Origin: an uncultured bacterium
GTDB lineage: Bacteria > Patescibacteriota > Gracilibacteria > Absconditabacterales > Absconditicoccaceae
Length of the DNA stretch: 64,000 bases
Assembly (NCBI GenBank): GCA_937862935.1
Contig: CALMEO010000055.1
Location: 19,927 to 83,926, forward strand
Direction: 5' to 3'
Shown here piece after piece: positions 6,566 to 41,786 of the stretch. The stretch's first letter is position 1. The number at the start of each line of letters is the position of its first letter. The notes beneath the pieces were generated by a model. That model was not told the origin of the DNA and searched no databases. It was given only the letters and a program-made list of their open reading frames with translations. The position numbers and the translations under genes were made by a program.

Positions 6566-6601
6566 GAATTCAGTAATATTTATACAAAAGTAACACCTAC
6601 A

Positions 6602-7858
6602 ATGAAAGATAATTTCGATTTAAAAAAGTTCTTATTTGAGAACAAATTAACAGCAGGTTCACGTCAACTGACAGAAGAAGTTAGTGAAGATGTCTGGAAG
6701 AGACTAGATGCTGCAATTGCAGAAGATGATGGAGAAGCTATGAAAGCTATCGCATTAGAACTGTTAGGAAAAGCTGGCAACTGGGCTAAGGAAAAAGTGA
6801 AACAAGGAGCTGAATGGAGTAAACAAAAGCTTATGAAAGCACACGGTATTACCGATGATGACCTAAATGAAGCTTTTAACCCTAAATCTAAACTTGCTGA
6901 AGTAATCGCTCAAGCTTGGGCAGAGAAAGACCTAGAAAAAGCTAAACAAATTATCCGTGATCTAATTGAACCGTCTAGAGTAAAAGCTAAAGACGACATT
7001 TTAAGAAACATGGAACCAATTCAATCAAAAGCTAAATTTGATTACTACCTTGCAAATTCACTCCTAAAATTTGAAGGGTTAGGTTTAAATGAAACAACAG
7101 AAACAACAAAAATAACAGAATCAACAATGACTGAAAGAGAACAATACATAGTTAGTTTAGTTGAAAATGCTCTAGGACTTGAGGGTTACGGAGATGACAA
7201 CGTAATCAATAAACTTGAAAAAAGAAATCAAGAACCTCCAGTAGAGCAACCTACTTACTCAGAAGGAGATGAAATGGTAAAAGAAAATCCACTTCCAGAG
7301 TACAACACTATTGAAGAGTTGATGAAGGATATCGAAGAGGGGACAAACAAAACTGCTTTAGAGTATAGAATGAAAAGAACTAAAGAACTGTACGAAGCTT
7401 TAGATGAACAGTTAAAATCTTTAGAAGAAGGTGAACACGCTAAACATATTGATAAGAAACATACAAAGAAAATGCGTTCTGATTCAGCTCAATTGAGAAA
7501 ATATGAAGCTAAGTTGATTAAAGAGTACGAAAGAAAGTACGAGAAAAAAGCTACTAAAAAAGCAGCTTCTAAAAAAGAAGAAGTTCCAATGGAAGAAATT
7601 GCAGTAAACGAATCTAAAACAAACAAAATGGAAAAACAATTCGACTTAAAAAAGTTCTTAGTAGAGAATAAATTAACTTCTAACTCTAGAAGTTTAAATG
7701 AATCTGAAGAAAATTACAAAGACCAAATTCAAAGTGTTGTCAATGGATTTGTTGAAGAACTTAACTCAGTTGAGGCTTCAATGTATGACAGAGAAACGGC
7801 TTTAGCATGGTGTGATGATGCAATTGCTGAGATCTATAGTTTACAAGAAACACTTTAG
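6602..7858 (+). CDS. hypothetical protein carrying the FDLKKFLxENKLT leader motif twice
   Basis: Motif at aa 5-25 and again near aa 344; Lys/Glu-rich coiled-coil-like middle; terminator downstream. Confidence 0.7.
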   Translation: MKDNFDLKKFLFENKLTAGSRQLTEEVSEDVWKRLDAAIAEDDGEAMKAIALELLGKAGNWAKEKVKQGAEWSKQKLMKAHGITDDDLNEAFNPKSKLAEVIAQAWAEKDLEKAKQIIRDLIEPSRVKAKDDILRNMEPIQSKAKFDYYLANSLLKFEGLGLNETTETTKITESTMTEREQYIVSLVENALGLEGYGDDNVINKLEKRNQEPPVEQPTYSEGDEMVKENPLPEYNTIEELMKDIEEGTNKTALEYRMKRTKELYEALDEQLKSLEEGEHAKHIDKKHTKKMRSDSAQLRKYEAKLIKEYERKYEKKATKKAASKKEEVPMEEIAVNESKTNKMEKQFDLKKFLVENKLTSNSRSLNESEENYKDQIQSVVNGFVEELNSVEASMYDRETALAWCDDAIAEIYSLQETL

Positions 7859-7943: not shown

Positions 7944-8774
7944 ATGAGTCAACCAGACGTAAAACAGTTGATAGCTCAAGAATATGTAAAGTGTGCTAAG
8001 GACCCGGCGTACTTTATGAGAAAATATTGCTATATTCAACATCCAACTAGAGGTAGAATTCTCTTTGGATTGTACCCTTTTCAAGAAGGGGTTCTACATT
8101 TATTTAGGGATCACAAATACATTATTACCTTAAAATCTAGACAGTTAGGGATTTCAACATTAGCAGCAGGATATGCACTATGGTTAATGTTATTTCACAA
8201 AGATAAAACAATCCTTACGTTAGCTATTACTCAAGCAACAGCTAGAAACCTTGTAACTAAAACAATTTTCATGTACGAAAATTTACCAAAATGGTTACAG
8301 TTACCTTTTCAAGAAAAAAACAAACTATCGTTAAGATTAACAAACGGATCTAAAATTACAGCTAAATCATCTAACCCAGATGCTGCACGTTCAGAAGCGG
8401 TATCACTACTTTTAATAGACGAGGCTGCTTTCATTGAAAACATTGAAGAAACTTATACAGCTGCTCAACAAACGTTAGCTACAGGGGGACAATGTATGGC
8501 ACTTTCTACACCTAACGGTATTGGTAACTGGTTTCATAAAACATGGGTGGATGCTGAATCAGGAGATAACGGTTTCATACCTGTTAAGTTACCTTGGACA
8601 GTTCACCCAGAAAGAGATCAGTCATGGAGAGATGAACAGGATAAAAAACTTGGAGTAAGAGCAGCAGCACAGGAATGTGATTGTCTCTGGGGGGATACCA
8701 TAGTTACCGTTAGGTATAACGAAACAGGGGAAATTATGGAAATGACACTTGAAGAGCTTTATAAACTTTTATAA
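7944..8774 (+). CDS. terL: terminase large subunit, N-terminal ATPase part fused to a 30-aa N-intein fragment
   Basis: KSRQLGIST (Walker A-like) and LLLIDEAAF (Walker B); ends ...AAQECD|CLWGDTIVTV...KLL*, an intein block A signature. Confidence 0.85.
   Translation: MSQPDVKQLIAQEYVKCAKDPAYFMRKYCYIQHPTRGRILFGLYPFQEGVLHLFRDHKYIITLKSRQLGISTLAAGYALWLMLFHKDKTILTLAITQATARNLVTKTIFMYENLPKWLQLPFQEKNKLSLRLTNGSKITAKSSNPDAARSEAVSLLLIDEAAFIENIEETYTAAQQTLATGGQCMALSTPNGIGNWFHKTWVDAESGDNGFIPVKLPWTVHPERDQSWRDEQDKKLGVRAAAQECDCLWGDTIVTVRYNETGEIMEMTLEELYKLL
8682..8771 (+). mobile_element. split intein N-fragment (IntN, 30 aa)
   Basis: CLWGDTIVTVRYNETGEIMEMTLEELYKLL; Cys1 plus the xxDT motif; resembles the short IntN of AceL-TerL-type atypical split inteins. 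Confidence 0.75.
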
Positions 8775-8809: not shown

Positions 8810-9553
8810 ATGAAAAGTAATACACAAGCTTATTGGGACAGACTAAAAACTAAGTTGAAAGATTTAAACATCTTACCTTACGAGGATGTTTACAGTTTTC
8901 TAACATTGGATAATAATTACCTAAATTATTTAGGAAAAGCTAAGAATCGTACTCTTATTTCAGAAAATCTTGAAATGTATAAATCTATAATGTTTTATAC
9001 ACAACATCTAGAAGATTCTTTTAAACTGCAAAATTCTTATGCTGGTTTTTGGAATTTTTCACATAGGTTAAGGTTTATTGTAGAACATAATACTGAAATT
9101 ACTAGACTAAAATGTAAATGTGGAAAAAAATTAACTTGGACCACCTACTGTAGACATTGCCCAGATTATAAAAGAAACCAATTAGGAAAACCACATACAG
9201 AACTAACAAAAAGAAAGATGAGGTTATCTACACTAGATTACATAAAGACACTTAAAGGTCAAGTAGTACCCCGTTATAATAAAACAAGTATTACCGTTTT
9301 AGAAAACTATGCTAAGAAGCATAATTTAAGGTTAATGCATGCAGAGAATGGCGGCGAATTTTTCATTAAGGAACTTGGGTATTTTGTAGATGGGTACGAT
9401 CCTATAAACAATGTTGTTGTCGAATTTGATGAACGACATCATTTTACGTTAGACGGAAAACTAAAACAGCGAGATGTAGAAAGAGAGACGGAAATAAAAA
9501 AACTATTAAAATGCGAATTTATCAGAATAAGGTATGATCAAATACAAGAATAA
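8810..9553 (+). CDS. free-standing homing endonuclease-like gene (Zn finger plus Vsr/EDxHD-like PD-(D/E)XK core) between the intein halves
   Basis: CKCGKK...CRHCPDY and YFVDGYDPINNVVVEFDERHHF; sits between IntN and IntC. Confidence 0.6.
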   Translation: MKSNTQAYWDRLKTKLKDLNILPYEDVYSFLTLDNNYLNYLGKAKNRTLISENLEMYKSIMFYTQHLEDSFKLQNSYAGFWNFSHRLRFIVEHNTEITRLKCKCGKKLTWTTYCRHCPDYKRNQLGKPHTELTKRKMRLSTLDYIKTLKGQVVPRYNKTSITVLENYAKKHNLRLMHAENGGEFFIKELGYFVDGYDPINNVVVEFDERHHFTLDGKLKQRDVERETEIKKLLKCEFIRIRYDQIQE

Positions 9554-9857
9554 TCACACATTTCAAGTTCTAACACCCACGGGTTTTAAACCTTTTTCGG
9601 GGATTAGGCAAACTACTAAATCAAAAGTCGTAAATCTTACACTATCTGATGGCGTTACTGTAGTAGTATCACTAAAACACAAAGTTGTTGTCAATGGAAA
9701 AGAGATACTTGCTAAGGATTTAAAAGAAGGTGACCAAATTGGAAATTTTAACACTGTTGAAAAGATTGAAATATTGGAGAAACCAACATTACTATATGAC
9801 CTTGTTAATGTCGGTACAGACAATTTATATCTTACAGATTCTTTTACCTCGCATAAT
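9534..9857 (+). mobile_element. split intein C-fragment (IntC, 108 aa)
   Basis: Ends ...LLYDLVNVGTDNLYLTDSFTSHN followed by Cys+1 (intein blocks F/G). Confidence 0.75.
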
Positions 9858-10697
9858 TGTGATTTCCTATCTTCAGGGGATTCTGTTATTGAACCTGAGA
9901 TTCTTTCCTATTATGAGGAAACATTCCAAATTGATCCATTGGAAAAAAGAGGTGTTGATCACAATCTTTGGATATGGGAATATCCAGATTCACACAAATC
10001 TTACATGATAGTAGCCGACGTCTCTAGAGGAGATTCTACTGACTACTCCGCATTTCATATCTTTGATATTGAAACAGCAGCACAGATTGGAGAGTATAAA
10101 GGTAAACTTTCACCTAAAGATTTTGGTAATGTACTAGTAGCAATTGCTTCAGAATATAATGATGCACTACTGGTAGTGGAGAATGCTAACATTGGATGGG
10201 CAACCATCGAACAGATATTAGCTAGAGAATACAAAAATCTATATTACTCATCTAGGTCAGAAACAGAAACAGTTGAATCCTATATGGCTAAATACGAAAG
10301 GGATATGTTGGTACCGGGTTTTACAATGTCTCAACGTAGTAGACCATTGGTAATTGCAAAGTTGACAGAATATGTTAGAGAAAAATCTGTATTGATTAGA
10401 TCAAAGAGATTATTGTCAGAACTAAGGGTATTTGTTTGGAAGAATGGTAAAGCACAAGCACAAACAAATTATAATGACGACTTGGTAATGTCTTTTGCTA
10501 CAGGACTGTACGTAAGAGATACAGCAATAAGGTTAAGACAGCAGGGAATGGACTTAGCTAGAGCACAGTTATCTTCAATATCCTCTCTTAACCAACGAAA
10601 TCCTGTGGTGTATAATTCAACAACTTCTAACTACAATAATCCATATAAAATAGAAACCCCGTATGGACATGAAGACCTTACGTGGCTGTTAGAATAA
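9534..10697 (+). CDS. terL: C-intein fragment fused to terminase large subunit C-terminal nuclease part
   Basis: After SHN|CDFLSSGDSV come MIVADVSRGDSTDYSAF, VVENANIGW and NYNDDLVMSFA, acidic motifs like an RNase H-fold terminase nuclease. Confidence 0.85.
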   Translation: MIKYKNNHTFQVLTPTGFKPFSGIRQTTKSKVVNLTLSDGVTVVVSLKHKVVVNGKEILAKDLKEGDQIGNFNTVEKIEILEKPTLLYDLVNVGTDNLYLTDSFTSHNCDFLSSGDSVIEPEILSYYEETFQIDPLEKRGVDHNLWIWEYPDSHKSYMIVADVSRGDSTDYSAFHIFDIETAAQIGEYKGKLSPKDFGNVLVAIASEYNDALLVVENANIGWATIEQILAREYKNLYYSSRSETETVESYMAKYERDMLVPGFTMSQRSRPLVIAKLTEYVREKSVLIRSKRLLSELRVFVWKNGKAQAQTNYNDDLVMSFATGLYVRDTAIRLRQQGMDLARAQLSSISSLNQRNPVVYNSTTSNYNNPYKIETPYGHEDLTWLLE

Positions 10698-10728: not shown

Positions 10729-12585
10729 ATGGCAGAAAGAAATTTATTTTCCTCTTTACAAAGACTCTTTTCGACAGATATACTGGTACGTAATGTAGGG
10801 GGAACCGAATTAAAGATAGCTGATGTAAATCATATTCAAGCAACAGGTAAATATCAAACAAATTCCCTGTTAGATAGATTTTCACGACTATACGTGTACA
10901 ATAATAGAAACATCTTCAACCCAAATCTCAACTACCAAACGTTGAGAATTCAGTTATACTCTGATTATGAAGCAATGGATACAGATCCGTTAATTGCTTC
11001 TACTTTAGATGTTTTAGCAGACGAATCAACTCTACGTAATGATCAAGGAGATGTCCTTTCTATTAAATCTTCTGATGAAAATATACAAAGAGTTCTCTAT
11101 AACCTATACTATGATATATTAAATATTGAGTTCAATTTATGGTCATGGGTCAGAAACATGTGTAAATATGGAGACTTTTTTCTTAAATTGGAAATTTCCG
11201 AAGAGTTTGGAGTATACAATGTACTACCGTACACTGTTTATAACATGGTTAGACATGAAGGTAGTGATAAGAATGAACCAGCTAAAGTTTGTTTTACAAT
11301 TAATCCGGACGGTTTAGCAGCATCAACAGATCCAAATTATATTCCTACTTCAAATAAATCCACTATTAACTTAGATAATTACGAAGTAGCTCACTTCAGG
11401 TTAATTTCAGATACAAATTATTTACCTTACGGTAGATCCTATATTGAACCAGCTAGAAAAATCTACAAACAATTAACGTTAATGGAAGATGCGATGTTAA
11501 TACATCGTATCATGAGAGCTCCTGAAAAGAGAACATTCTTTATTAATGTAGGTTCTATTCCACCAAACGAAGTAGAACAGTTTATGCAAAAAACAATAAG
11601 TAGTATTAAAAAGACTCCTTATATAGATCCGCAAACTGGTCAATATAACCTACGATTCAATATGCAAAATATGATGGAAGATTTCTATCTTCCTGTTCGT
11701 GGAGGAGATACTTCAACACGTATTGAAACTACAAAAGGCTTGGATTATGATGGTACAAATGATATTACTTATTTAAGAGATAAAATGTTTGCTGCACTAA
11801 AGGTACCGAAAGCTTTTTTCGGATATGAAAAAGATTTATCAGGTAAAGCTACATTAGCAGCAGAAGATATTCAATTTGCCAGAACAGTTGAACGCATACA
11901 GAGAATCGTAGAAAGTGAACTAACTAAAATAGGGTTAGTTCACTTGTATGCACAGGGATTCACAGGAGAATCTCTTACTAACTTTGAGATTAAACTGTCA
12001 ACTCCTTCAATTATTTTTGAGCAAGAGAAGGTTGCTTTAATGAAGGAAAAGGTAGATTTAGCTAGACAGATGCAGGAAACTAAACTATTTCCCTCTGATT
12101 ATATCTACGAGAACATTTACAACTTATCTGAAGATAAATATAATGAGATGAGAAACCTTGTAAGAGAGGATGCTAAAAGAGATTTTAGGTTATCTCAAAT
12201 TGAAAATGAGGGTAATGACCCGGTTATTACAGGTCAGTCATACGGTACACCTCATGATTTGGCTTCTATGTACGGCTACAGGGAACAAGGAGAACTACCG
12301 CTAGGTTATGACGAAAAGAACCCAGAAGGAAGACCTAGAGAAAAAATGTCAATCTTAGGTACTCATGCTGATCCGGTAGGAGGTATAGATAGGTTGGGGG
12401 TACAGGGTATGAAAGGGGGACAACCTTCTGATGTAGAGAATATAAAAGAGAATAATAAAACCCATACGGTATTATTGAGAAATAAATTGAATTTTCCACC
12501 TAGAAAACAGTTAATATTCGAAAAATTAGAGGAAGTTACTTCAAATCTATTAAACGAAGATCAAATTAAAGATTTAGACGATTAA
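10729..12585 (+). CDS. portal protein
   Basis: 618 aa directly after the terminase; MLIHRIMRAPEKRTFFINVG resembles the conserved core of T4 gp20-type portals. Confidence 0.75.
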   Translation: MAERNLFSSLQRLFSTDILVRNVGGTELKIADVNHIQATGKYQTNSLLDRFSRLYVYNNRNIFNPNLNYQTLRIQLYSDYEAMDTDPLIASTLDVLADESTLRNDQGDVLSIKSSDENIQRVLYNLYYDILNIEFNLWSWVRNMCKYGDFFLKLEISEEFGVYNVLPYTVYNMVRHEGSDKNEPAKVCFTINPDGLAASTDPNYIPTSNKSTINLDNYEVAHFRLISDTNYLPYGRSYIEPARKIYKQLTLMEDAMLIHRIMRAPEKRTFFINVGSIPPNEVEQFMQKTISSIKKTPYIDPQTGQYNLRFNMQNMMEDFYLPVRGGDTSTRIETTKGLDYDGTNDITYLRDKMFAALKVPKAFFGYEKDLSGKATLAAEDIQFARTVERIQRIVESELTKIGLVHLYAQGFTGESLTNFEIKLSTPSIIFEQEKVALMKEKVDLARQMQETKLFPSDYIYENIYNLSEDKYNEMRNLVREDAKRDFRLSQIENEGNDPVITGQSYGTPHDLASMYGYREQGELPLGYDEKNPEGRPREKMSILGTHADPVGGIDRLGVQGMKGGQPSDVENIKENNKTHTVLLRNKLNFPPRKQLIFEKLEEVTSNLLNEDQIKDLDD

Positions 12586-15275: not shown

Positions 15276-15854
15276 ATGAATAAGTTATTAATCAACGTAT
15301 CCCCTTTTAAAGGATTACTTACAGAAGCAGAAGGTAGACCTGGAGTATTTGAAGTAACAGGTATCATGCAAAGAGCTGGTGCTGAAAACCAAAATGGGAG
15401 AGTTTACAAAAGAGAAATCCTAGAAAGAGAAGTTCAAAAGTATATTGAAAACTTTGTTAAAGTGGGTAACGCATATGGAGAACTTGATCACCCTGAATCT
15501 CCAATTGTCTCCCTTAAGAACGCTTCACATATAGTAAAAGATTTGTGGTGGGAAGGAGATAATTTGATGGGTAAGGTAGAATTATTAGATACTCCAAGTG
15601 GAAATATCGTTAGAAATATTATTAGAGCTGGACATACAGTAGGTATTTCATCTCGTGGAACAGGGTCGGTAACACAAACTAACGAAGGTACATTACTTGT
15701 ACAACCTGATTTTGAATTAGTAGGTTGGGATTTCGTTTCTAATCCATCAACTCAGGGAGCATTTATGAATCCAATCTCACTAAACGAAGGTAAACAGTTT
15801 ACAGGAAAATACGATAAAATAAATTTAATCATAAACAACATCTTAAGATCATAA
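15276..15854 (+). CDS. prohead protease (T4 gp21-like)
   Basis: YGELDHPES and GISSRGTGS motifs; lies upstream of the scaffold and capsid genes. Confidence 0.6.
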   Translation: MNKLLINVSPFKGLLTEAEGRPGVFEVTGIMQRAGAENQNGRVYKREILEREVQKYIENFVKVGNAYGELDHPESPIVSLKNASHIVKDLWWEGDNLMGKVELLDTPSGNIVRNIIRAGHTVGISSRGTGSVTQTNEGTLLVQPDFELVGWDFVSNPSTQGAFMNPISLNEGKQFTGKYDKINLIINNILRS

Positions 15855-16243
15855 TGGATAATTTTAGTATACAAAAGTGGCAAGCAAAACACTTAAAACC
15901 GGCTTTACTTACTGAAAATGTACAAAATTTTGAATCAAAAATTTATTCACCAATTCTACACTGGTTAGATGAGTTAGAGGGAAGTCAAGCACCTAGTAAT
16001 GTTCTTAAAGCTATTAAAGTAGCAACAGATATTTTAGAAGGTAGAGCAGCTGCTATTCTAAATAAAAATTACCCAGGACAGGCACCTGTAAATGAATTTA
16101 CAGAACCTTCTCAAAATTTAGTACTGATGGTAAATAATTACCTTGATTCTAAAGCTATTTCAGAAGAGGAAAAATTAGAAGAACTTTTAGAATTGGTTGA
16201 CTTCTGTGAGCAAAAAATTGAAGAATTAAATACACCGTTATAA
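15854..16243 (+). CDS. hypothetical small acidic protein
   Basis: ATGG overlap; N-terminal IQKWQAKHLK motif shared with the next ORF. Confidence 0.55.
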   Translation: MDNFSIQKWQAKHLKPALLTENVQNFESKIYSPILHWLDELEGSQAPSNVLKAIKVATDILEGRAAAILNKNYPGQAPVNEFTEPSQNLVLMVNNYLDSKAISEEEKLEELLELVDFCEQKIEELNTPL

Positions 16244-16482
16244 TGAAAGATTTAAACATACATGAATGGCAGAGAAAATACCTTAAAGAAGAGGTTAATG
16301 ATGTTACAAATATGGTTGCAGAGGTAACAGCTTTAAGTGCTGAAGATATGGAAGATTTTCTATTTAGATTAGGTAAATACTTCGAATCATCTTCAGAAGA
16401 ACTAACGAACATGGATGCTAGAAATGTAGGAAAACACTTAATTGCAGCATCTCAAATAGTGAAAGCTAGAACAGGAAATTAA
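16243..16482 (+). CDS. hypothetical small protein
   Basis: N-terminal IHEWQRKYLK motif; terminator downstream. Confidence 0.55.
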   Translation: MKDLNIHEWQRKYLKEEVNDVTNMVAEVTALSAEDMEDFLFRLGKYFESSSEELTNMDARNVGKHLIAASQIVKARTGN

Positions 16483-16655: not shown

Positions 16656-17588
16656 ATGATAAACAAAAATCTGTTTAAAGAAGCAATTGCTGAAGCTAGA
16701 ACTGTACGTCAGGTAGCTATCACAAATGCAAAAGAAGCTTTAGAAGAGTCTTTAACACCGCATTTAAAGGAAATGTTAGTTAAGAAACTTCAAGAAATGG
16801 AAGAAGCTGATAATGAAGAGGTAGTTGACGAAAACATTAACAATGTTGAAGATGAACATGAGTTAGTTAATAACGTTAACGAAACTGAAGAAGCAGAAGA
16901 AGATACTGAAGAAGAAGTAGATGATGTACCAGTAGAAAACTCTCCAGAAGAAGCACCAGCAGAAGAAGAAGAGTTAGATTTTGAAAACATGACTAGAGAT
17001 GATTTTAAAAATTTACTTTCTGATTTAATGGGAGAAATTGAAGCTGAAAAAGGGGAAGAAACACCAGGTGAAGACATTTCAGATGAAAATGCAATTGATA
17101 TTGATGAGCCATCTGAAGAGGATATTAACATTGATGAACTATTAGCTGAATTAGCAGGGGAAGAAGCAAAAGAAGAAATCAACGAAGCTGATAAGAAGGA
17201 TGAACAAGACCTGAAAAAAGTTGAAAATAAAGATCTTAAAGAAGCTTTACAAACTGTTAATGACCTTAAAAATCAACTTCAAGAGGTTAATCTTTTAAAC
17301 GCAAAATTACTTTATGTAAATAAGGTTTTTAAATCAAATAATTTAACTGAAAGTCAAAAAGTAAATGTTATTGCAGCATTTGACAAAGCTGAAACAGTTA
17401 GAGAAGTAAAATTAGTTTTCGAAACAGTGTCTAAAAATGTAGTGGTTAAGAAACCGTCTACAATTAAAGAACATGCATCATTTGCATCAAAACCTACAGG
17501 TACTACAACATTAGCTCCAAAAGAGATTGTTAATGAAGTATCAGAACAGGTTTTAAGAATGCAAAAGTTAGCGGGAATTATAAAATAA
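16656..17588 (+). CDS. scaffolding protein (acidic, coiled-coil-like)
   Basis: Extremely Glu/Asp-rich 310-aa ORF immediately upstream of the major capsid gene. Confidence 0.55.
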   Translation: MINKNLFKEAIAEARTVRQVAITNAKEALEESLTPHLKEMLVKKLQEMEEADNEEVVDENINNVEDEHELVNNVNETEEAEEDTEEEVDDVPVENSPEEAPAEEEELDFENMTRDDFKNLLSDLMGEIEAEKGEETPGEDISDENAIDIDEPSEEDINIDELLAELAGEEAKEEINEADKKDEQDLKKVENKDLKEALQTVNDLKNQLQEVNLLNAKLLYVNKVFKSNNLTESQKVNVIAAFDKAETVREVKLVFETVSKNVVVKKPSTIKEHASFASKPTGTTTLAPKEIVNEVSEQVLRMQKLAGIIK

Positions 17589-17612: not shown

Positions 17613-19265
17613 ATGAACTTAAACCAACTATTAGAAAGCTCAAATACGTACAAAACCTTGCAAGCAGATGCTGCACGTTTATCAACAAAATGGGCTAAGT
17701 CAGGACTATTAGAGGGGATCTCTAATGAAAATGACAGAAATAACATGTCAATGATTCTTGAGAATCAGGCAAAACAAATCATAGCTGAAGCTAATCAAAC
17801 TGGTACAGGTAATATCGGTACATCAACAGGAAACGCTGAGCAATGGGCAGGGGTAGCTCTTCCATTAGTACGTAAAGTATTCGCTCAAATTTCTGCTAAA
17901 GATTTCTTATCTGTTCAACCAATGAACTTACCATCTGGTCTAGTATTTTACTTAGATTTCAAATATGGTACAAATTCTGCAGGTCAATTCTCAGCAGGTG
18001 ATAATATGTACGGTAACGTTTCTACTGCTAACTCAAAAATGACTAAAGATGCTGATCCATCAGGAGGTCTTTACGGAGCTGGTAGATATGGGTACTCTAC
18101 AAACGATTATACATCTTCTACATTAACATGGCAAGCTACTTTAGCTGCAACTAAGTTTACTACAGGTTCTGCACTTGCAGGAGCTACTTGGGATGCTGCA
18201 TTAAATTACGATACAGTTGTATCTCAATCACTAAAAGGTGGTACACTGTTACAACTTAACGTAACATCAAGTGACTTAGGAGGTGTAAACTTTGCATCTA
18301 AATCAGTTAGATCATTCGCAGTGTCAGGATCAAACATTGTTAACTTCTATCCACAGTTTACTACAGTAACTGACGCAGGTGTTGTTACATTCCTTGTTTC
18401 TGCTTCTGCTGCTAATACAGTATCTGGTGTAGTTGTTAATTATGACGTACAACCGACTGATAACTCAAGAGGTGACTTTGAGGATGGAGCTACTAAAGTA
18501 GGAGCTGCTACTACAATTTCAATACCTGAAATAAACGTTTCATTAGCTTCTGAAGCAATTGTTGCTAAAACAAGAAAATTAAAAGCTCAATGGACTCCAG
18601 AATTCGCACAAGACTTAAATGCTTACCATTCAATTGATGCTGAAGCTGAATTAACATCATTACTTTCGGAATATATTTCAATGGAGATTGATTTAGAATT
18701 ACTTGATATGTTAATACAAGACGCTAGAACAACTGATTACTGGTCAGCGTATAACAACAAAGCTTGGAACGGATCTGCATTCGTATCACAAACTGATGGA
18801 TACTATAATACACAAGGACAATGGTTCCAAACTTTAGGAACTAAAATCCAAAAAGTATCTAATAAGATTCACCAAAAAACTTTAAGAGGTGGAGCTAACT
18901 TCTTAGTATGTTCTCCTTCTGTAGCTACAATCCTTGAATCAATACCGGGATATGCTGCTGAAACAAATGGTGATAAAATGGATTTCGCAATGGGTGTTCA
19001 AAAAGTAGGATCTTTAAACTCAAGATTTAGAGTTTATAAAAATCCTTACATGACTGAAAACGTGATTTTAATGGGTTACAGAGGTTCTCAATTCCTAGAA
19101 ACAGGAGCTGTTTATTCTCCATACATTCCATTAATGATGACTCCATTAGTATATGATCCTAATACACTTACACCAAGAAAAGGTATTATGACTCGTTACG
19201 CTAAGAAAATGATCAGACCGGAATTTTATGGAAAAATCTTTGTTAGTGATCTTGCTACAGTTTAA
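17613..19265 (+). CDS. major capsid protein
   Basis: 550 aa after the protease and scaffold genes; N-terminus (LSTKWAKSGLLEG...MILENQAKQ) resembles the T4 gp23 family; strong terminator follows. Confidence 0.75.
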   Translation: MNLNQLLESSNTYKTLQADAARLSTKWAKSGLLEGISNENDRNNMSMILENQAKQIIAEANQTGTGNIGTSTGNAEQWAGVALPLVRKVFAQISAKDFLSVQPMNLPSGLVFYLDFKYGTNSAGQFSAGDNMYGNVSTANSKMTKDADPSGGLYGAGRYGYSTNDYTSSTLTWQATLAATKFTTGSALAGATWDAALNYDTVVSQSLKGGTLLQLNVTSSDLGGVNFASKSVRSFAVSGSNIVNFYPQFTTVTDAGVVTFLVSASAANTVSGVVVNYDVQPTDNSRGDFEDGATKVGAATTISIPEINVSLASEAIVAKTRKLKAQWTPEFAQDLNAYHSIDAEAELTSLLSEYISMEIDLELLDMLIQDARTTDYWSAYNNKAWNGSAFVSQTDGYYNTQGQWFQTLGTKIQKVSNKIHQKTLRGGANFLVCSPSVATILESIPGYAAETNGDKMDFAMGVQKVGSLNSRFRVYKNPYMTENVILMGYRGSQFLETGAVYSPYIPLMMTPLVYDPNTLTPRKGIMTRYAKKMIRPEFYGKIFVSDLATV

Positions 19266-40949: not shown

Positions 40950-41786
40950 ATGGAAAATTTTAATTTAAGAAAATTTTTAATAGAAAATAAGTTGACATCC
41001 AACAGTAGAAGGTTGTCAGAAGAGACATCAGACGACATCTACTACGACGATAAAGAACAAGGGAAACTGTCTGACTTCGGTAAGAAAACGGTTATGTCAG
41101 TTTACAAGAGTTTTAACTATGGAGATGAATCTGCAACAGTTAAAGGTTCTTCAAGTAAACCTCTAATACCTGTTATGAAAAGGTATACTTTTCAATCAAT
41201 ACAACCTTATCTTACAGGAACAAAACTTTTACCTAAAACAACTTCACATGAATGGTATACAGGTTTTGAACAGATAAAATCACACGGATATACTATCATT
41301 TCGTTAGAATTAGATCTTGAAACACCTGAAAAGGGAGGAGACGCAGAACACAACAAATATAAAGCACTCACAGTAGTCCAGAATTTACAAAAGGCTTTTG
41401 GATATTTAGCTGAAAAGTTTGAAGTTTCAGTACATTCTTTTAGAACACGTATTCTTATTTACCTTTCTAGGAAATGGGAAGAGGAATCACATGGGAAACT
41501 AAGTTTAAATGGTCAAGTTAAGGATATCTTGATTAACAACGGAGCAGTACCTTATTTAACCGGTCCAATAACTGTTGTAAAAACAAAAACCGGTTACACA
41601 CTAGAGGCTGCCCTGTTCAAGAAATTAGATGAAGTAGAACTGGAAAAACTAAAAAGAAATTTAGAAAATACTTTTAAACCTTTTTTGAAGAAATTTCCAA
41701 CTCCTGTACGTAGTTACCAAAATATACCGGGATATACAGATTATAAACTGTATTTTACACCGGAAATTAGAACTAAATTTTCATAA
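40950..41786 (+). CDS. hypothetical protein with the FNLRKFLIENKLT leader motif
   Basis: N-terminus MENFNLRKFLIENKLTSNSRRLSEE matches the motif in ORF 6602..7858. Confidence 0.6.
   Translation: MENFNLRKFLIENKLTSNSRRLSEETSDDIYYDDKEQGKLSDFGKKTVMSVYKSFNYGDESATVKGSSSKPLIPVMKRYTFQSIQPYLTGTKLLPKTTSHEWYTGFEQIKSHGYTIISLELDLETPEKGGDAEHNKYKALTVVQNLQKAFGYLAEKFEVSVHSFRTRILIYLSRKWEEESHGKLSLNGQVKDILINNGAVPYLTGPITVVKTKTGYTLEAALFKKLDEVELEKLKRNLENTFKPFLKKFPTPVRSYQNIPGYTDYKLYFTPEIRTKFS

What the first reader, a model, noticed from the sequence alone, without database searches (positions are those of the whole stretch)
6602..7858. A conserved 25-aa leader, F(D/N)L(K/R)KFLxENKLT(A/S)xSRxLxE, shared by otherwise unrelated proteins: possible capsid-targeting or propeptide signal
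**Seen in the sequence**
- MKDNFDLKKFLFENKLTAGSRQLTEE opens ORF 6602..7858.
- MEKQFDLKKFLVENKLTSNSRSLNESEE recurs inside the same ORF (nt about 7630..7713).
- MENFNLRKFLIENKLTSNSRRLSEE opens ORF 40950..41786, in the replication module.
- Each copy ends in L-x-E.

**Established knowledge**
T4 internal proteins share a short N-terminal capsid-targeting sequence. The gp21 prohead protease removes it after (L/I)-x-E.

**Inference**
- This phage has a gp21-like protease (15276..15854), so the motif may direct packaging of these proteins into proheads and then be cleaved off.
- The internal copy would release a 75-aa C-terminal fragment.
Basis: inference. Interest (0 to 1): 0.6.

Follow-up and report, generated by a model that had tools for sequence, protein, structure and literature searches.

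The report
Capsid-address leader on flavobacterial phage proteins
A T4-like phage of flavobacteria puts the same 25-residue peptide, which ends in the cutting site of its head-maturation protease, on unrelated proteins. The peptide is most likely an address label that loads them into the forming capsid and is then cut off, as phage T4 does with a shorter tag.

Summary
Three copies of M-x-(x)-N-F-(D/N)-L-(K/R)-K-F-L-x-E-N-K-L-T-x-(N/G)-S-R-x-L-x-E lie at nt 6602, 7628 and 40950.

Supporting evidence:
- **Selection on the peptide:** the nearest cultured relative, Flavobacterium phage immuto, has four copies, all N-terminal. The DNA differs at many synonymous sites.
- **Spread:** the leader occurs in at least 120 IMG/VR stretches and about 1,670 protein clusters. 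It is almost always 2-4 residues after the start Met, on at least 57 unrelated cargo families with no Pfam annotation.
- **Sharp boundary:** conservation stops at a (L/I/V/M)-x-E, 20-21 residues after the Phe (140 of 147).
- **Protease link:** all 18 long leader-bearing contigs encode a T4 gp21-type (S77) prohead protease. The capsid and protease propeptides carry invariant (I/V/L)-x-E sites.
- **Location:** leader genes often sit between the protease and scaffold genes.
- **Second copies:** internal or C-terminal copies are preceded by another (L/I/V/M)-x-E in 53 of 66 cases.
- **Motif avoidance:** cargo proteins specifically avoid (L/I)-x-E (observed/expected 0.66 and 0.74).

ORF 6602-7858 is different. 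It is helical, rich in LxE and carries a leader near each end, so it looks like a degradable prohead-core protein.

This is a new variant of the T4 capsid-targeting sequence. It is supported only by sequence evidence. Confidence is about 0.7.

The parts
6575..6583 (+). AATATTTAT box 18 nt before the ATG of ORF 6602. It is a near-variant of the CTATTTAT box that precedes the structural genes, so it is a probable late promoter.
   Evidence: The spacing matches the boxes before terminase (7917), portal (10704), tube (29208) and tape measure (30820).
6602..6676 (+). Leader copy 1 (MKDNFDLKKFLFENKLTAGSRQLTE), N-terminus of ORF 6602-7858. Predicted cut after LTE.
   Evidence: AlphaFold2 gives a short helix at residues 7-13 followed by a disordered stretch at 15-26.
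6677..7627 (+). Cargo A of ORF 6602-7858. It is the conserved 'immuto_194-like' all-helical protein, with 14 (L/I)xE sites against 6.8 expected. It is probably a degradable prohead-core or scaffold-accessory protein. A (V/I)-x-E site (VNE) lies 9 residues before the Phe of the second leader (5 before its Met).
   Evidence: No Pfam, PHROG or PDB match.
7628..7702 (+). Leader copy 2 (MEKQFDLKKFLVENKLTSNSRSLNE), in frame inside the ORF. In immuto it opens a separate gene. In many relatives it is the C-terminus, or an internal copy with no Met before it.
7703..7858 (+). Cargo B: a 51-aa acidic helical hairpin (pI 4.05), followed by the stop codon.
   Evidence: P0162 carries the same module fused without a Met.
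40950..41021 (+). Leader copy 3 (MENFNLRKFLIENKLTSNSRRLSE), N-terminus of ORF 40950-41786.
41022..41786 (+). Cargo of ORF 40950-41786. A variable linker is followed by a basic (pI 9.1) alpha/beta domain of unknown fold, with only 2 (L/I)xE sites. It is a candidate internal (packaged) protein. It occupies the same slot as immuto_3, but the cargo is unrelated.
15276..15854 (+). Prohead protease, T4 gp21 type (Peptidase_S77). It has its own conserved LTE at residues 15-17.
15854..16243 (+). Small protein in the protease-scaffold slot with a 'type 2' leader, MDNFSIQKWQAKHLKPALLTE.
16243..16482 (+). Small protein in the same slot with a 'type 2' leader, MKDLNIHEWQRKYLKEE.
16656..17588 (+). Acidic helical scaffold (gp22-like) protein, the presumed docking partner of the leaders.
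   Evidence: (L/I)xE observed/expected is 1.43.
17613..17789 (+). Propeptide of the Gp23-type major capsid protein (59 aa). It contains KW..LLEG and ILENQAK and ends in IIAE, the predicted maturation site.

Best explanation
The roughly 25-residue peptide is a detachable capsid (prohead-core) targeting propeptide. It is a lineage-specific, longer counterpart of the 10-residue T4 capsid-targeting sequence (CTS).

Proposed mechanism (inferred, not shown):
1. Late in infection the first half of the leader (N-F-D-L-K-K-F-L-x-E, a short amphipathic helix) docks the tagged protein onto the scaffolding core while the Gp23-type shell assembles around it.
2. The second half (N-K-L-T-x-N-S-K/R-x-L/I-x-E) is a spacer that presents a (L/I/V/M)-x-Glu site.
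3. When the S77 gp21-type prohead protease (15276-15854) is activated, it cuts after that Glu. The leader is released and the cargo is freed inside the head.

Two kinds of tagged protein appear to exist.
- **LxE-poor cargos**, such as ORF 40950-41786. These would survive proteolysis, stay with the DNA and could be injected.
- **The LxE-rich, all-helical, double-ended immuto_194-like protein** (cargo A of ORF 6602-7858). This would act as an auxiliary core or scaffold protein and be cut into pieces. Cuts at VNE and LNE would excise its second leader and release the 51-aa cargo B.
For: Shown by tools:
1. **Position.** In 144 of 151 occurrences in IMG/VR loci a Met lies 2-4 residues before the Phe. 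In 134 it is the first Met of the ORF. Of the 150 best profile hits, 148 have an N-terminal copy.
2. **Peptide-level selection.** Copies share 50-85% of residues but only 57-82% of bases, with many synonymous codon differences.
3. **Unrelated cargos.** There are 57 BLAST clusters among 145 cargos. Pfam and PHROGs find almost nothing. The profile finds 1,670 clusters at E<=1e-3 in 1.84 billion representatives.
4. **Sharp boundary.** At positions the search pattern did not fix, information stays at 1.7-3.5 bits up to the Glu at position 21 (only variable position 14, 1.1 bits, and the x of L/I-x-E, position 20, 1.2 bits, fall lower), then drops to 0.4 bits or less. 140 of 147 leaders have (L/I/V/M)-x-E, and 132 of those have the Glu at position 20-21.
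5. **Matching protease.** The window enzyme is Peptidase_S77. All 18 long leader-bearing contigs have one. The MCP propeptide ends in an invariant (I/V/L)-x-E followed by a hypervariable stretch, and the protease N-terminus has an invariant (L/I)-x-E at residues 15-17.
6. **Location.** Recurrent slots are between protease and scaffold (11-14 cases) and just upstream of terminase (14 or more). Gene 6602 has a late-type box.
7. **Second copies.** 53 of 66 internal or C-terminal copies have (L/I/V/M)-x-E in the 10 residues before them, against a 22% background. 15 proteins end in a leader copy. In other relatives a 12-residue half-leader ends the protein, and there the true stop is followed by a terminator.
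8. **Motif avoidance.** (L/I)-x-E observed/expected is 0.66 in 54 cargo-cluster representatives (65 against 97.8; Poisson 2.7e-4). It is 0.74 in 50 cargos that are not 194-like, from a second sample. Controls (L/I)xD, xQ and xK give 1.03-1.40, and background ORFs give 1.16.
9. **Structure.** In AlphaFold2 models the leader forms short helices flanked by disorder and is not part of the folded cargo.
10. **Phage-specific.** Only one true copy was found in 596 Gb of prokaryote genomes.

Established knowledge: the T4 CTS MKTYQEFIAE is sufficient for head targeting and is removed by gp21 at L/I-x-E. T4 Alt and gp21 are also processed at the C-terminus.
Against: - There is no direct evidence of packaging or cleavage. 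No virion proteome or N-terminal mapping exists for immuto or any relative.
- The 18 of 18 co-occurrence with S77 is not phylogenetically independent, because all the contigs belong to one phage group.
- About half of the leader genes sit at junctions in the replication module (before primase, DNA polymerase or SSB). ORF 40950 has no late box of its own.
- Cargos are mostly acidic (median pI 4.6), unlike the basic T4 IPII and IPIII.
- Seven of 147 leaders lack the terminal motif.
- The motif-avoidance signal rests on about 50 families per sample, and the two samples may overlap.
- The invariance of F, L, F-L-x-E-N and L-T in the IMG/VR set is partly built in by my search pattern.
Confidence: 0.7

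Rival explanations
1. The leader is a general protein-protein docking tag for some hub other than the prohead. Candidates are the phage-encoded GroEL/GroES, the replisome or SSB, or a localisation factor. In this reading the leader is not cleaved, and (L/I)-x-E is just part of the binding helix.
For: - Several slots are next to replication genes: primase about 18, DNA polymerase 3-5, SSB 3.
- ORF 40950 lacks its own late box.
- Relatives encode GroEL/ES.
- The tag also works at C-termini, as a docking peptide would.
Against: - It does not explain why conservation stops exactly at the Glu.
- It does not explain why internal copies are preceded by a second (L/I/V/M)-x-E.
- It does not explain why cargos specifically avoid (L/I)-x-E but not (L/I)-x-D/Q/K.
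- It does not explain why leader genes sit between protease and scaffold.
Confidence: 0.15
2. The leader is an uncleaved structural anchor. It would attach accessory proteins to the outside of the virion (decoration, fibres) or to the portal and terminase.
For: Many leader genes lie in the head and packaging region. Shared N-terminal anchors with variable distal parts are common in phage fibres (general knowledge).
Against: - 25 residues is far shorter than known anchor domains.
- Cargos are small, diverse, mostly orphan proteins with no fibre or Ig-like domains.
- The cleavage-motif signatures are left unexplained.
Confidence: 0.08
3. The conserved 5' segment is a DNA-level recombination landmark for swapping gene cassettes, like the mobile regulatory cassettes of T4-type phages. 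The peptide itself would have no function.
For: The same slot holds unrelated cargos behind the same leader: window 40950 versus immuto_3. The protease-scaffold slot is hypervariable. Such cassette shuffling is described for T4-type phages (PMC2839356, listed).
Against: - Nucleotide identity between copies is only 57-82%, with many synonymous changes while the residues are kept.
- In-frame C-terminal copies end proteins.
- The strict distance to the Met points to selection on the peptide.
Confidence: 0.03
4. The similarity is due to chance, or to a mis-assembled or mis-called ORF.
For: None found.
Against: There are thousands of independent occurrences. An identical 418-aa protein is seen on 3 contigs, and P0162 has the same fused architecture.
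Confidence: 0.01

Closest known systems
[quoted passage not shown]
   Same: - A short N-terminal peptide shared by otherwise unrelated, fast-evolving proteins.
- It ends in hydrophobic-x-Glu.
- The phage has a Gp23 capsid protein, a Gp20 portal and an S77 protease.
- There are a few copies per genome (3 here, 4 in immuto, 1-5 in relatives).
- The pattern is loosely alike: Met, an aromatic residue at position 4, then F-(I/L)-x-E.
   Different: - It is 24-25 residues, not 10, and appears to be bipartite.
- There is no significant sequence similarity to the T4 CTS.
- It also occurs as internal and C-terminal copies bracketed by cleavage motifs.
- Cargos are mostly acidic.
- Many genes lie in the head operon itself or at replication-module junctions.
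- Function is untested.
T4 prohead-core proteins gp22, gp67 and gp68, and the doubly processed Alt and gp21 (PMC9026906)
   Same: Cargo A of ORF 6602-7858 is all-helical, charged and enriched in (L/I)xE (14 against 6.8 expected), like scaffold proteins that gp21 cuts into fragments. Having removable pieces at both ends parallels the N- and C-terminal processing of Alt.
   Different: There is no sequence or profile similarity to gp22, gp67 or gp68. The gene lies upstream of terminase rather than next to the protease. Its two ends carry the same leader motif.
Propeptides of giant-phage head and ejection proteins (phiKZ, 201phi2-1, SPN3US), cut by gp21-related proteases at S/A-x-E (PMC9026906, PMC5694885)
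   Same: Many head proteins carry propeptides removed C-terminal to Glu by a diverged gp21 homologue.
   Different: Those propeptides are long and not one shared portable motif. The P3 preference there is Ser or Ala, not Leu or Ile.
Encapsulin cargo-loading peptides (general knowledge)
   Same: A short portable peptide directs diverse cargo into an HK97-fold shell. It can sit at either terminus.
   Different: Encapsulin peptides bind the shell protein directly and are not removed by a maturation protease.

Membership tests
T4-type capsid-targeting propeptide (CTS) | A short terminal peptide shared by otherwise unrelated proteins of one phage | tested here: met
   3 copies in the window and 4 in immuto. 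57 unrelated cargo clusters in IMG/VR loci. 1,670 profile hits.
T4-type capsid-targeting propeptide (CTS) | The peptide ends in the prohead-protease motif, hydrophobic(L/I)-x-Glu | tested here: met
   140 of 147 have it. The Glu is at position 20-21 from the Phe in 132. The information content collapses right after it.
T4-type capsid-targeting propeptide (CTS) | The phage encodes a gp21-type (Peptidase_S77) prohead protease with T4-type head genes | tested here: met
   PF03420 124.6 bits, Gp23 272.6 bits, Portal_T4 231.8 bits. 18 of 18 long leader-bearing contigs have S77.
T4-type capsid-targeting propeptide (CTS) | Sequence homology to the T4 CTS MKTYQEFIAE | tested here: inconclusive
   Only a pattern-level resemblance: M-x-x-aromatic, then F-(I/L)-x-E. 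The peptides are too short for statistics. tblastn with the leader hits only immuto among 50,697 phage records.
T4-type capsid-targeting propeptide (CTS) | The peptide is sufficient to load a protein into the prohead | not testable with these tools
   This needs a leader-reporter fusion in an infected host. Immuto and Flavobacterium sp. LMO8 are cultured.
T4-type capsid-targeting propeptide (CTS) | The peptide is removed by the prohead protease in vivo, and the mature cargo is present in virions | not testable with these tools
   No proteome was found in the literature searches. Indirect support comes from cargos avoiding (L/I)xE.
Sec/Tat signal peptide or lipoprotein signal | A hydrophobic core of about 7-15 residues after a basic N-region, followed by a signal-peptidase site | tested here: not met
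   The leader is charged and amphipathic (FDLKKFLVENKLTSNSR), with no hydrophobic run and no lipobox Cys.
Known protein domain (Pfam, PHROGs, PDB) | A significant profile match covering the motif | tested here: not met
   No family covers the leader in Pfam or PHROGs. PDB sequence profiles give nothing.

The most novel reading that the evidence does not exclude
The leader is a position-independent, bipartite 'prohead entry code' that imitates the segment of the capsid protein's own propeptide that binds the scaffolding core. The leader has (F)L-x-E-N-K followed by (L/I)-x-E. The MCP propeptide of this clade has I-L-E-N-Q-A-K followed by I-I-A-E. T-even gp23 has I-F-E-N-Q-E-K followed by L-T-E.

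If this is right, the type 1, 2 and 3 leaders seen here and the T4 CTS are diverged versions of one ancient signal of the T4 superfamily. The packaged and possibly injected proteome of uncultured phages, at least 1,670 protein clusters for this leader alone, could then be read directly from sequence. Depletion of (L/I)xE would mark the proteins that survive maturation.
Probability: 0.2. Interest if true: 0.75.

Novelty: new variant of a known kind. Interest (0 to 1): 0.58.

Why it matters
If the leader works as proposed, three things follow.
- **Prediction from sequence.** One could predict which proteins a large group of uncultured aquatic Bacteroidota phages load into their capsids. At least 1,670 protein clusters carry the leader, and nearly all are 'dark matter' with no annotation. 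In T4, packaged proteins include anti-restriction and host-takeover factors, so this set is a focused place to look for new counter-defence proteins.
- **A packaging tag.** It would provide a portable packaging tag and a defined cleavage site for a non-enterobacterial phage.
- **A test of generality.** It gives a natural experiment on how general the T4 head-targeting logic is: a bipartite tag, tags at either end, and polyprotein forms.

A cultured relative, immuto on Flavobacterium sp. LMO8, makes all of this directly testable.

Tried and rejected
- **Domain and structure look-ups.** Pfam and PHROGs on both window proteins, on 52 cargo representatives and on the 150 best profile hits gave essentially nothing: one HD domain, two WYL_2, one YfdX. 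PDB sequence-profile searches gave no hits. Foldseek of the ORF 40950 model against the PDB gave no match at E<=1e-3. The cargo functions therefore stay unknown.
- **tblastn of the 25-aa leader against 50,697 phage records.** Only immuto was found. The query is short, so sensitivity is limited.
- **Literature searches.** I searched for the motif strings and for immuto. There is no description of the leader and no virion proteome.
- **A frameshift or mis-call as the cause of the 12-residue C-terminal half-leader (FDLRKFLAENRK*).** Rejected, because a terminator hairpin, a late box and the terminase gene follow directly.
- **A DNA-level repeat or recombination explanation.** Rejected on codon evidence.
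- **A terminase small subunit role for the gene upstream of TerL.** I considered this but found no evidence for or against it. The shared leader on unrelated proteins argues that the leader itself is not a TerS feature.
- **The first replication of the (L/I)xE-avoidance test.** It showed no depletion (observed/expected 1.06). Once the LxE-rich 194-like family was separated out, the remaining cargos gave 0.74 and the 194-like family gave 1.38.
- **BLAST of the window MCP against T-even gp23.** It aligned only the mature part. The propeptide resemblance (KW..LLEG, I-L/F-E-N-Q) is by eye.
Full report
**1. Observation**

ORF 6602-7858 (418 aa) starts MKDNFDLKKFLFENKLTAGSRQLTE. It contains, in frame at residue 343 (nt 7628), MEKQFDLKKFLVENKLTSNSRSLNE. 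ORF 40950-41786 (278 aa) starts MENFNLRKFLIENKLTSNSRRLSE. A six-frame regex scan finds exactly these three copies in the window and no further true copy in the 1.32-Mb assembly; its one extra hit, on contig C43 with four mismatches, is not a leader. The window is C55:19927-83926 of that assembly. Outside the leader the proteins are unrelated, and neither Pfam nor PHROGs recognises them.

**2. What the element is**

The window is a T4-type myovirus genome, syntenic with Flavobacterium phage vB_FspM_immuto_2-6A (Immutovirus, 160 kb, host Flavobacterium sp. LMO8). Three head genes are confirmed by Pfam:
- Peptidase_S77 at 15276-15854 (124.6 bits)
- Gp23 major capsid protein at 17613-19265 (272.6 bits)
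- Portal_T4 at 10729-12585 (231.8 bits)

Immuto has four leader proteins, and in all four the leader is N-terminal:
- immuto_3, upstream of SSB, the same slot as window ORF 40950
- immuto_179, upstream of primase
- immuto_194 and immuto_195, upstream of terminase

In immuto the last two are separate genes overlapping in TAATG. The window ORF 6602-7858 is their in-frame fusion.

**3. The peptide is selected, not the DNA**

The seven copies share 50-85% of their residues. Of the 10-17 identical residues in each pair, 4-10 use different codons. Nucleotide identity is 57-82%.

**4. Breadth**

The same scan of 596 Gb of prokaryote genomes gave one true copy, on a 1-kb fragment.
- Of 151 occurrences, 144 have a Met 2-4 residues before the Phe. 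In 134 that Met is the first in the ORF.
- Complete leader proteins are 55-530 aa long, with a median of 188. Their cargos fall into 57 BLAST clusters. Pfam and PHROGs are almost blank for them.
- A 31-position profile of the leader finds 1,670 representative proteins (50%-identity clusters) at E<=1e-3 and 159 at E<=1e-10, out of 1.84 billion.

One caution. The invariance of the core residues within the IMG/VR set is partly imposed by my pattern. The statements below rest on positions that the pattern left free.

**5. The boundary**

At the free positions after the core, information stays high up to the Glu:
- N15: 3.5 bits
- S16: 3.3 bits
- K/R17: 2.8 bits
- L/I/M/V18: 1.7 bits
- L/I19: 2.0 bits
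- x20 (the free residue of L/I-x-E): 1.2 bits
- E21: 1.8 bits
- position 22 onwards: 0.4 bits or less

140 of 147 leaders have (L/I/V/M)-x-E here, and in 132 of them the Glu is at position 20 or 21. In the ORF 40950 family the leader is followed by a variable, indel-rich linker and then a conserved domain. AlphaFold2 places the leader as short, low-confidence helices flanked by disorder, detached from the folded cargo.

**6. Link to the protease**

T4 gp21 cuts after L/I-x-E. The 10-residue T4 CTS MKTYQEFIAE loads the internal proteins into the scaffolding core and is then removed (PMC9026906, PMC3012670, PMC8442874).

In this phage group:
- All 18 leader-bearing contigs of at least 46 kb encode an S77 protease. 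They are related phages, so this is not 18 independent observations.
- The Gp23 propeptide is highly conserved for about 58 residues and ends in an invariant (I/V/L)-x-E (QIIAE in the window). A hypervariable Gly/Ser/Thr stretch follows.
- The protease N-terminus has an invariant (L/I)-x-E at residues 15-17.

The clade's protease therefore very probably keeps the T4 specificity. Its known-type substrates show the same 'conservation ends at Glu' signature as the leader.

**7. Genomic position**

The conserved head operon runs portal, three conserved genes, protease, scaffold, capsid. In it, the slot between protease and scaffold is hypervariable. It holds three kinds of small protein:
- Canonical leader proteins (for example L126, L127 and L128).
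- 'Type 2' leaders of the form MENNFDIHKWQAKFLKE. The window has MDNFSIQKWQAKHLKPALLTE at 15854 and MKDLNIHEWQRKYLKEE at 16243.
- 10-residue 'type 3' leaders, M-K-L-S-x-x-I-L-E.

All three types end in (L/I)-x-E.

The other recurrent slots are directly upstream of terminase (14 or more), between two conserved genes further upstream (10), upstream of primase (about 18), upstream of DNA polymerase (3-5) and upstream of SSB (3).

Gene 6602 has an AATATTTAT box 18 nt before its ATG. This matches the CTATTTAT boxes before the terminase, portal, tube and tape-measure genes.

**8. Second copies**

Among the 150 best profile hits, 66 have an N-terminal leader plus an internal or C-terminal one.
- In 53 of 66 unique contexts, a (L/I/V/M)-x-E lies within the 10 residues before the second copy. 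Typical contexts are ...ALQE-G-FDL and ...LKE-G-FDL. The background rate is 22% (many of these proteins are homologues).
- Often no Met precedes the second copy.
- Fifteen proteins end with a leader copy.
- Others end with only its first half...ALQEG-FDLRKFLAENRK-stop. A terminator hairpin, a late box and the terminase gene follow, so this is a true C-terminus.
- The closest homologues of the window protein (69-78% identity) end ...EEIAVNESK-x-FDLRKFLVENKLTTNSRITEE-stop. P0162 carries cargo B fused without a Met.

The window ORF is therefore a genuine polyprotein-like form: leader, LTE, cargo A, VNE, leader, LNE, cargo B (51 aa).

The tag works at either end and is always joined to the cargo through a cleavage-type motif. 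That fits a detachable docking module. The half-leader suggests that the first half (NFDLKKFLxE) is the docking part and the second half is a spacer plus cut site. This last point is inference.

**9. Cargos avoid the motif**

I compared (L/I)-x-E counts with composition-preserving shuffles.

| Set | (L/I)-x-E observed/expected | Source |
|---|---|---|
| 54 cargo-cluster representatives | 0.66 (65 against 97.8; Poisson 2.7e-4) | |
| Other long ORFs of the same loci | 1.16 | |
| Scaffold | 1.43 | |
| MCP | 2.1 | |
| Protease | 1.7 | |
| 50 cargos that are not 194-like, second sample | 0.74 | |
| immuto_194-like family, second sample | 1.38 | |

In the cargo representatives, the control motifs (L/I)-x-D, (L/I)-x-Q and (L/I)-x-K give 1.03, 1.10 and 1.20, and E-x-(L/I) gives 1.09. 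The second sample, taken from the profile hits, showed no depletion when pooled (1.06). The figures in the table are after separating out the LxE-rich immuto_194-like family.

Window cargo A has 14 sites against 6.8 expected. The ORF 40950 cargo has 2 against 3.0. This specific avoidance is what one expects of proteins that must survive next to an (L/I)-x-E protease. The enrichment in cargo A is what one expects of a core protein meant to be degraded.

**10. The two window proteins**

- **Cargo A (residues 26-342).** It is all-helical beads on a string, with a confident long hairpin at residues 237-312. It is charged and conserved across the clade. I read it as an auxiliary prohead-core or scaffold protein.
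- **Cargo B.** A 51-aa acidic helical hairpin.
- **The ORF 40950 cargo.** A basic (pI 9.1) alpha/beta domain with no structural neighbour. It occupies a slot where immuto has an unrelated cargo behind the same leader. I read it as an internal-protein-like cargo.

The biochemical functions of all three are unknown.

**11. Comparison and novelty**

The logic matches the T4 CTS system, and several defining features were tested and met (see the membership table). Homology to the T4 decapeptide cannot be shown. This leader differs from it in several ways:
- It is 24-25 residues long and apparently bipartite.
- It occurs at either terminus and inside polyproteins.
- It marks far more families.
- Its cargos are mostly acidic (median pI 4.6).

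I found no publication describing it. Earlier notes of this scan report other CTS-like leaders in other uncultured T4-like phages. Those are unchecked leads, not evidence, but they suggest that the phenomenon is general. I class this as a new variant of a known kind.

**12. Remaining doubt**

All the evidence is circumstantial. Replication-module locations, acidic cargos and the shared ancestry of the sampled phages leave room for another docking function (about 0.15) or an external structural anchor (about 0.08). The decisive test is proteomics with N-terminal mapping on the cultured relative.

Noticed in passing
window 15854-16243 and 16243-16482; L130:4218-4502; immuto 125241-125468: A second leader class sits on small proteins between the protease and scaffold genes. 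Its form is ME(N/K)(N/D)F(D/N)(I/M)H-x-W(Q/R)A(K/N)(F/H/Y)LKE, ending in L-K-E. It looks like the first half of the main leader with an insertion.
   Followed up: partly
L050, L063, L085, L115, L116 (protease-scaffold slot): A third leader class of 10 residues, M-(K/R/Q)-L-S-x-x-I-L-E-(S/N). It has the same length and end motif as the T4 CTS MKTYQEFIAE.
   Followed up: no
L017, L067, L029, L028, L041 (gene upstream of terminase): The immuto_194-like protein ends with only the first 12 residues of the leader (...ALQEG-FDLRKFLAENRK-stop). A GC-rich terminator hairpin (AAGCCCACC...GGTGGGTTTTTTT), a CATATTTAT box and the terminase gene follow.
   Followed up: partly
window 17613-17789 versus T-even gp23 residues 1-65: The capsid propeptide shares KW..LLEG and I-(L/F)-E-N-Q-x-K with T-even gp23, although BLAST aligns only the mature part. 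The I-L-E-N-Q segment resembles the L-x-E-N-K core of the leader.
   Followed up: partly
window 40950-41786 versus immuto 1803-2318: Same slot (between the conserved gene after DNA polymerase and SSB) and same leader, but completely unrelated cargos. This points to cassette exchange behind a fixed leader.
   Followed up: partly
immuto 117631-118632 (immuto26A_194): The GenBank annotation 'cob(I)alamin adenosyltransferase, PduO' is probably spurious. The homologous window protein and its family have no Pfam match and are predicted to be helical and coiled-coil.
   Followed up: partly
window 7944-8774, 8810-9553, 9534-10697: The terminase large subunit is split into two ORFs, with an extra ORF between them.
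   Followed up: no
cargos of leader proteins in L006-L125: Cargos are strongly biased towards acidic pI: median 4.6, with 72% below 5.5, against 45% of other long ORFs. The leader itself is basic (pI about 10).
   Followed up: partly
L049:5769-8356; L077:3029-5357; G010 at 69710-71324: Tandem arrays of three or four leader genes spaced 600-900 nt apart. These are local expansions of tagged small proteins.
   Followed up: no
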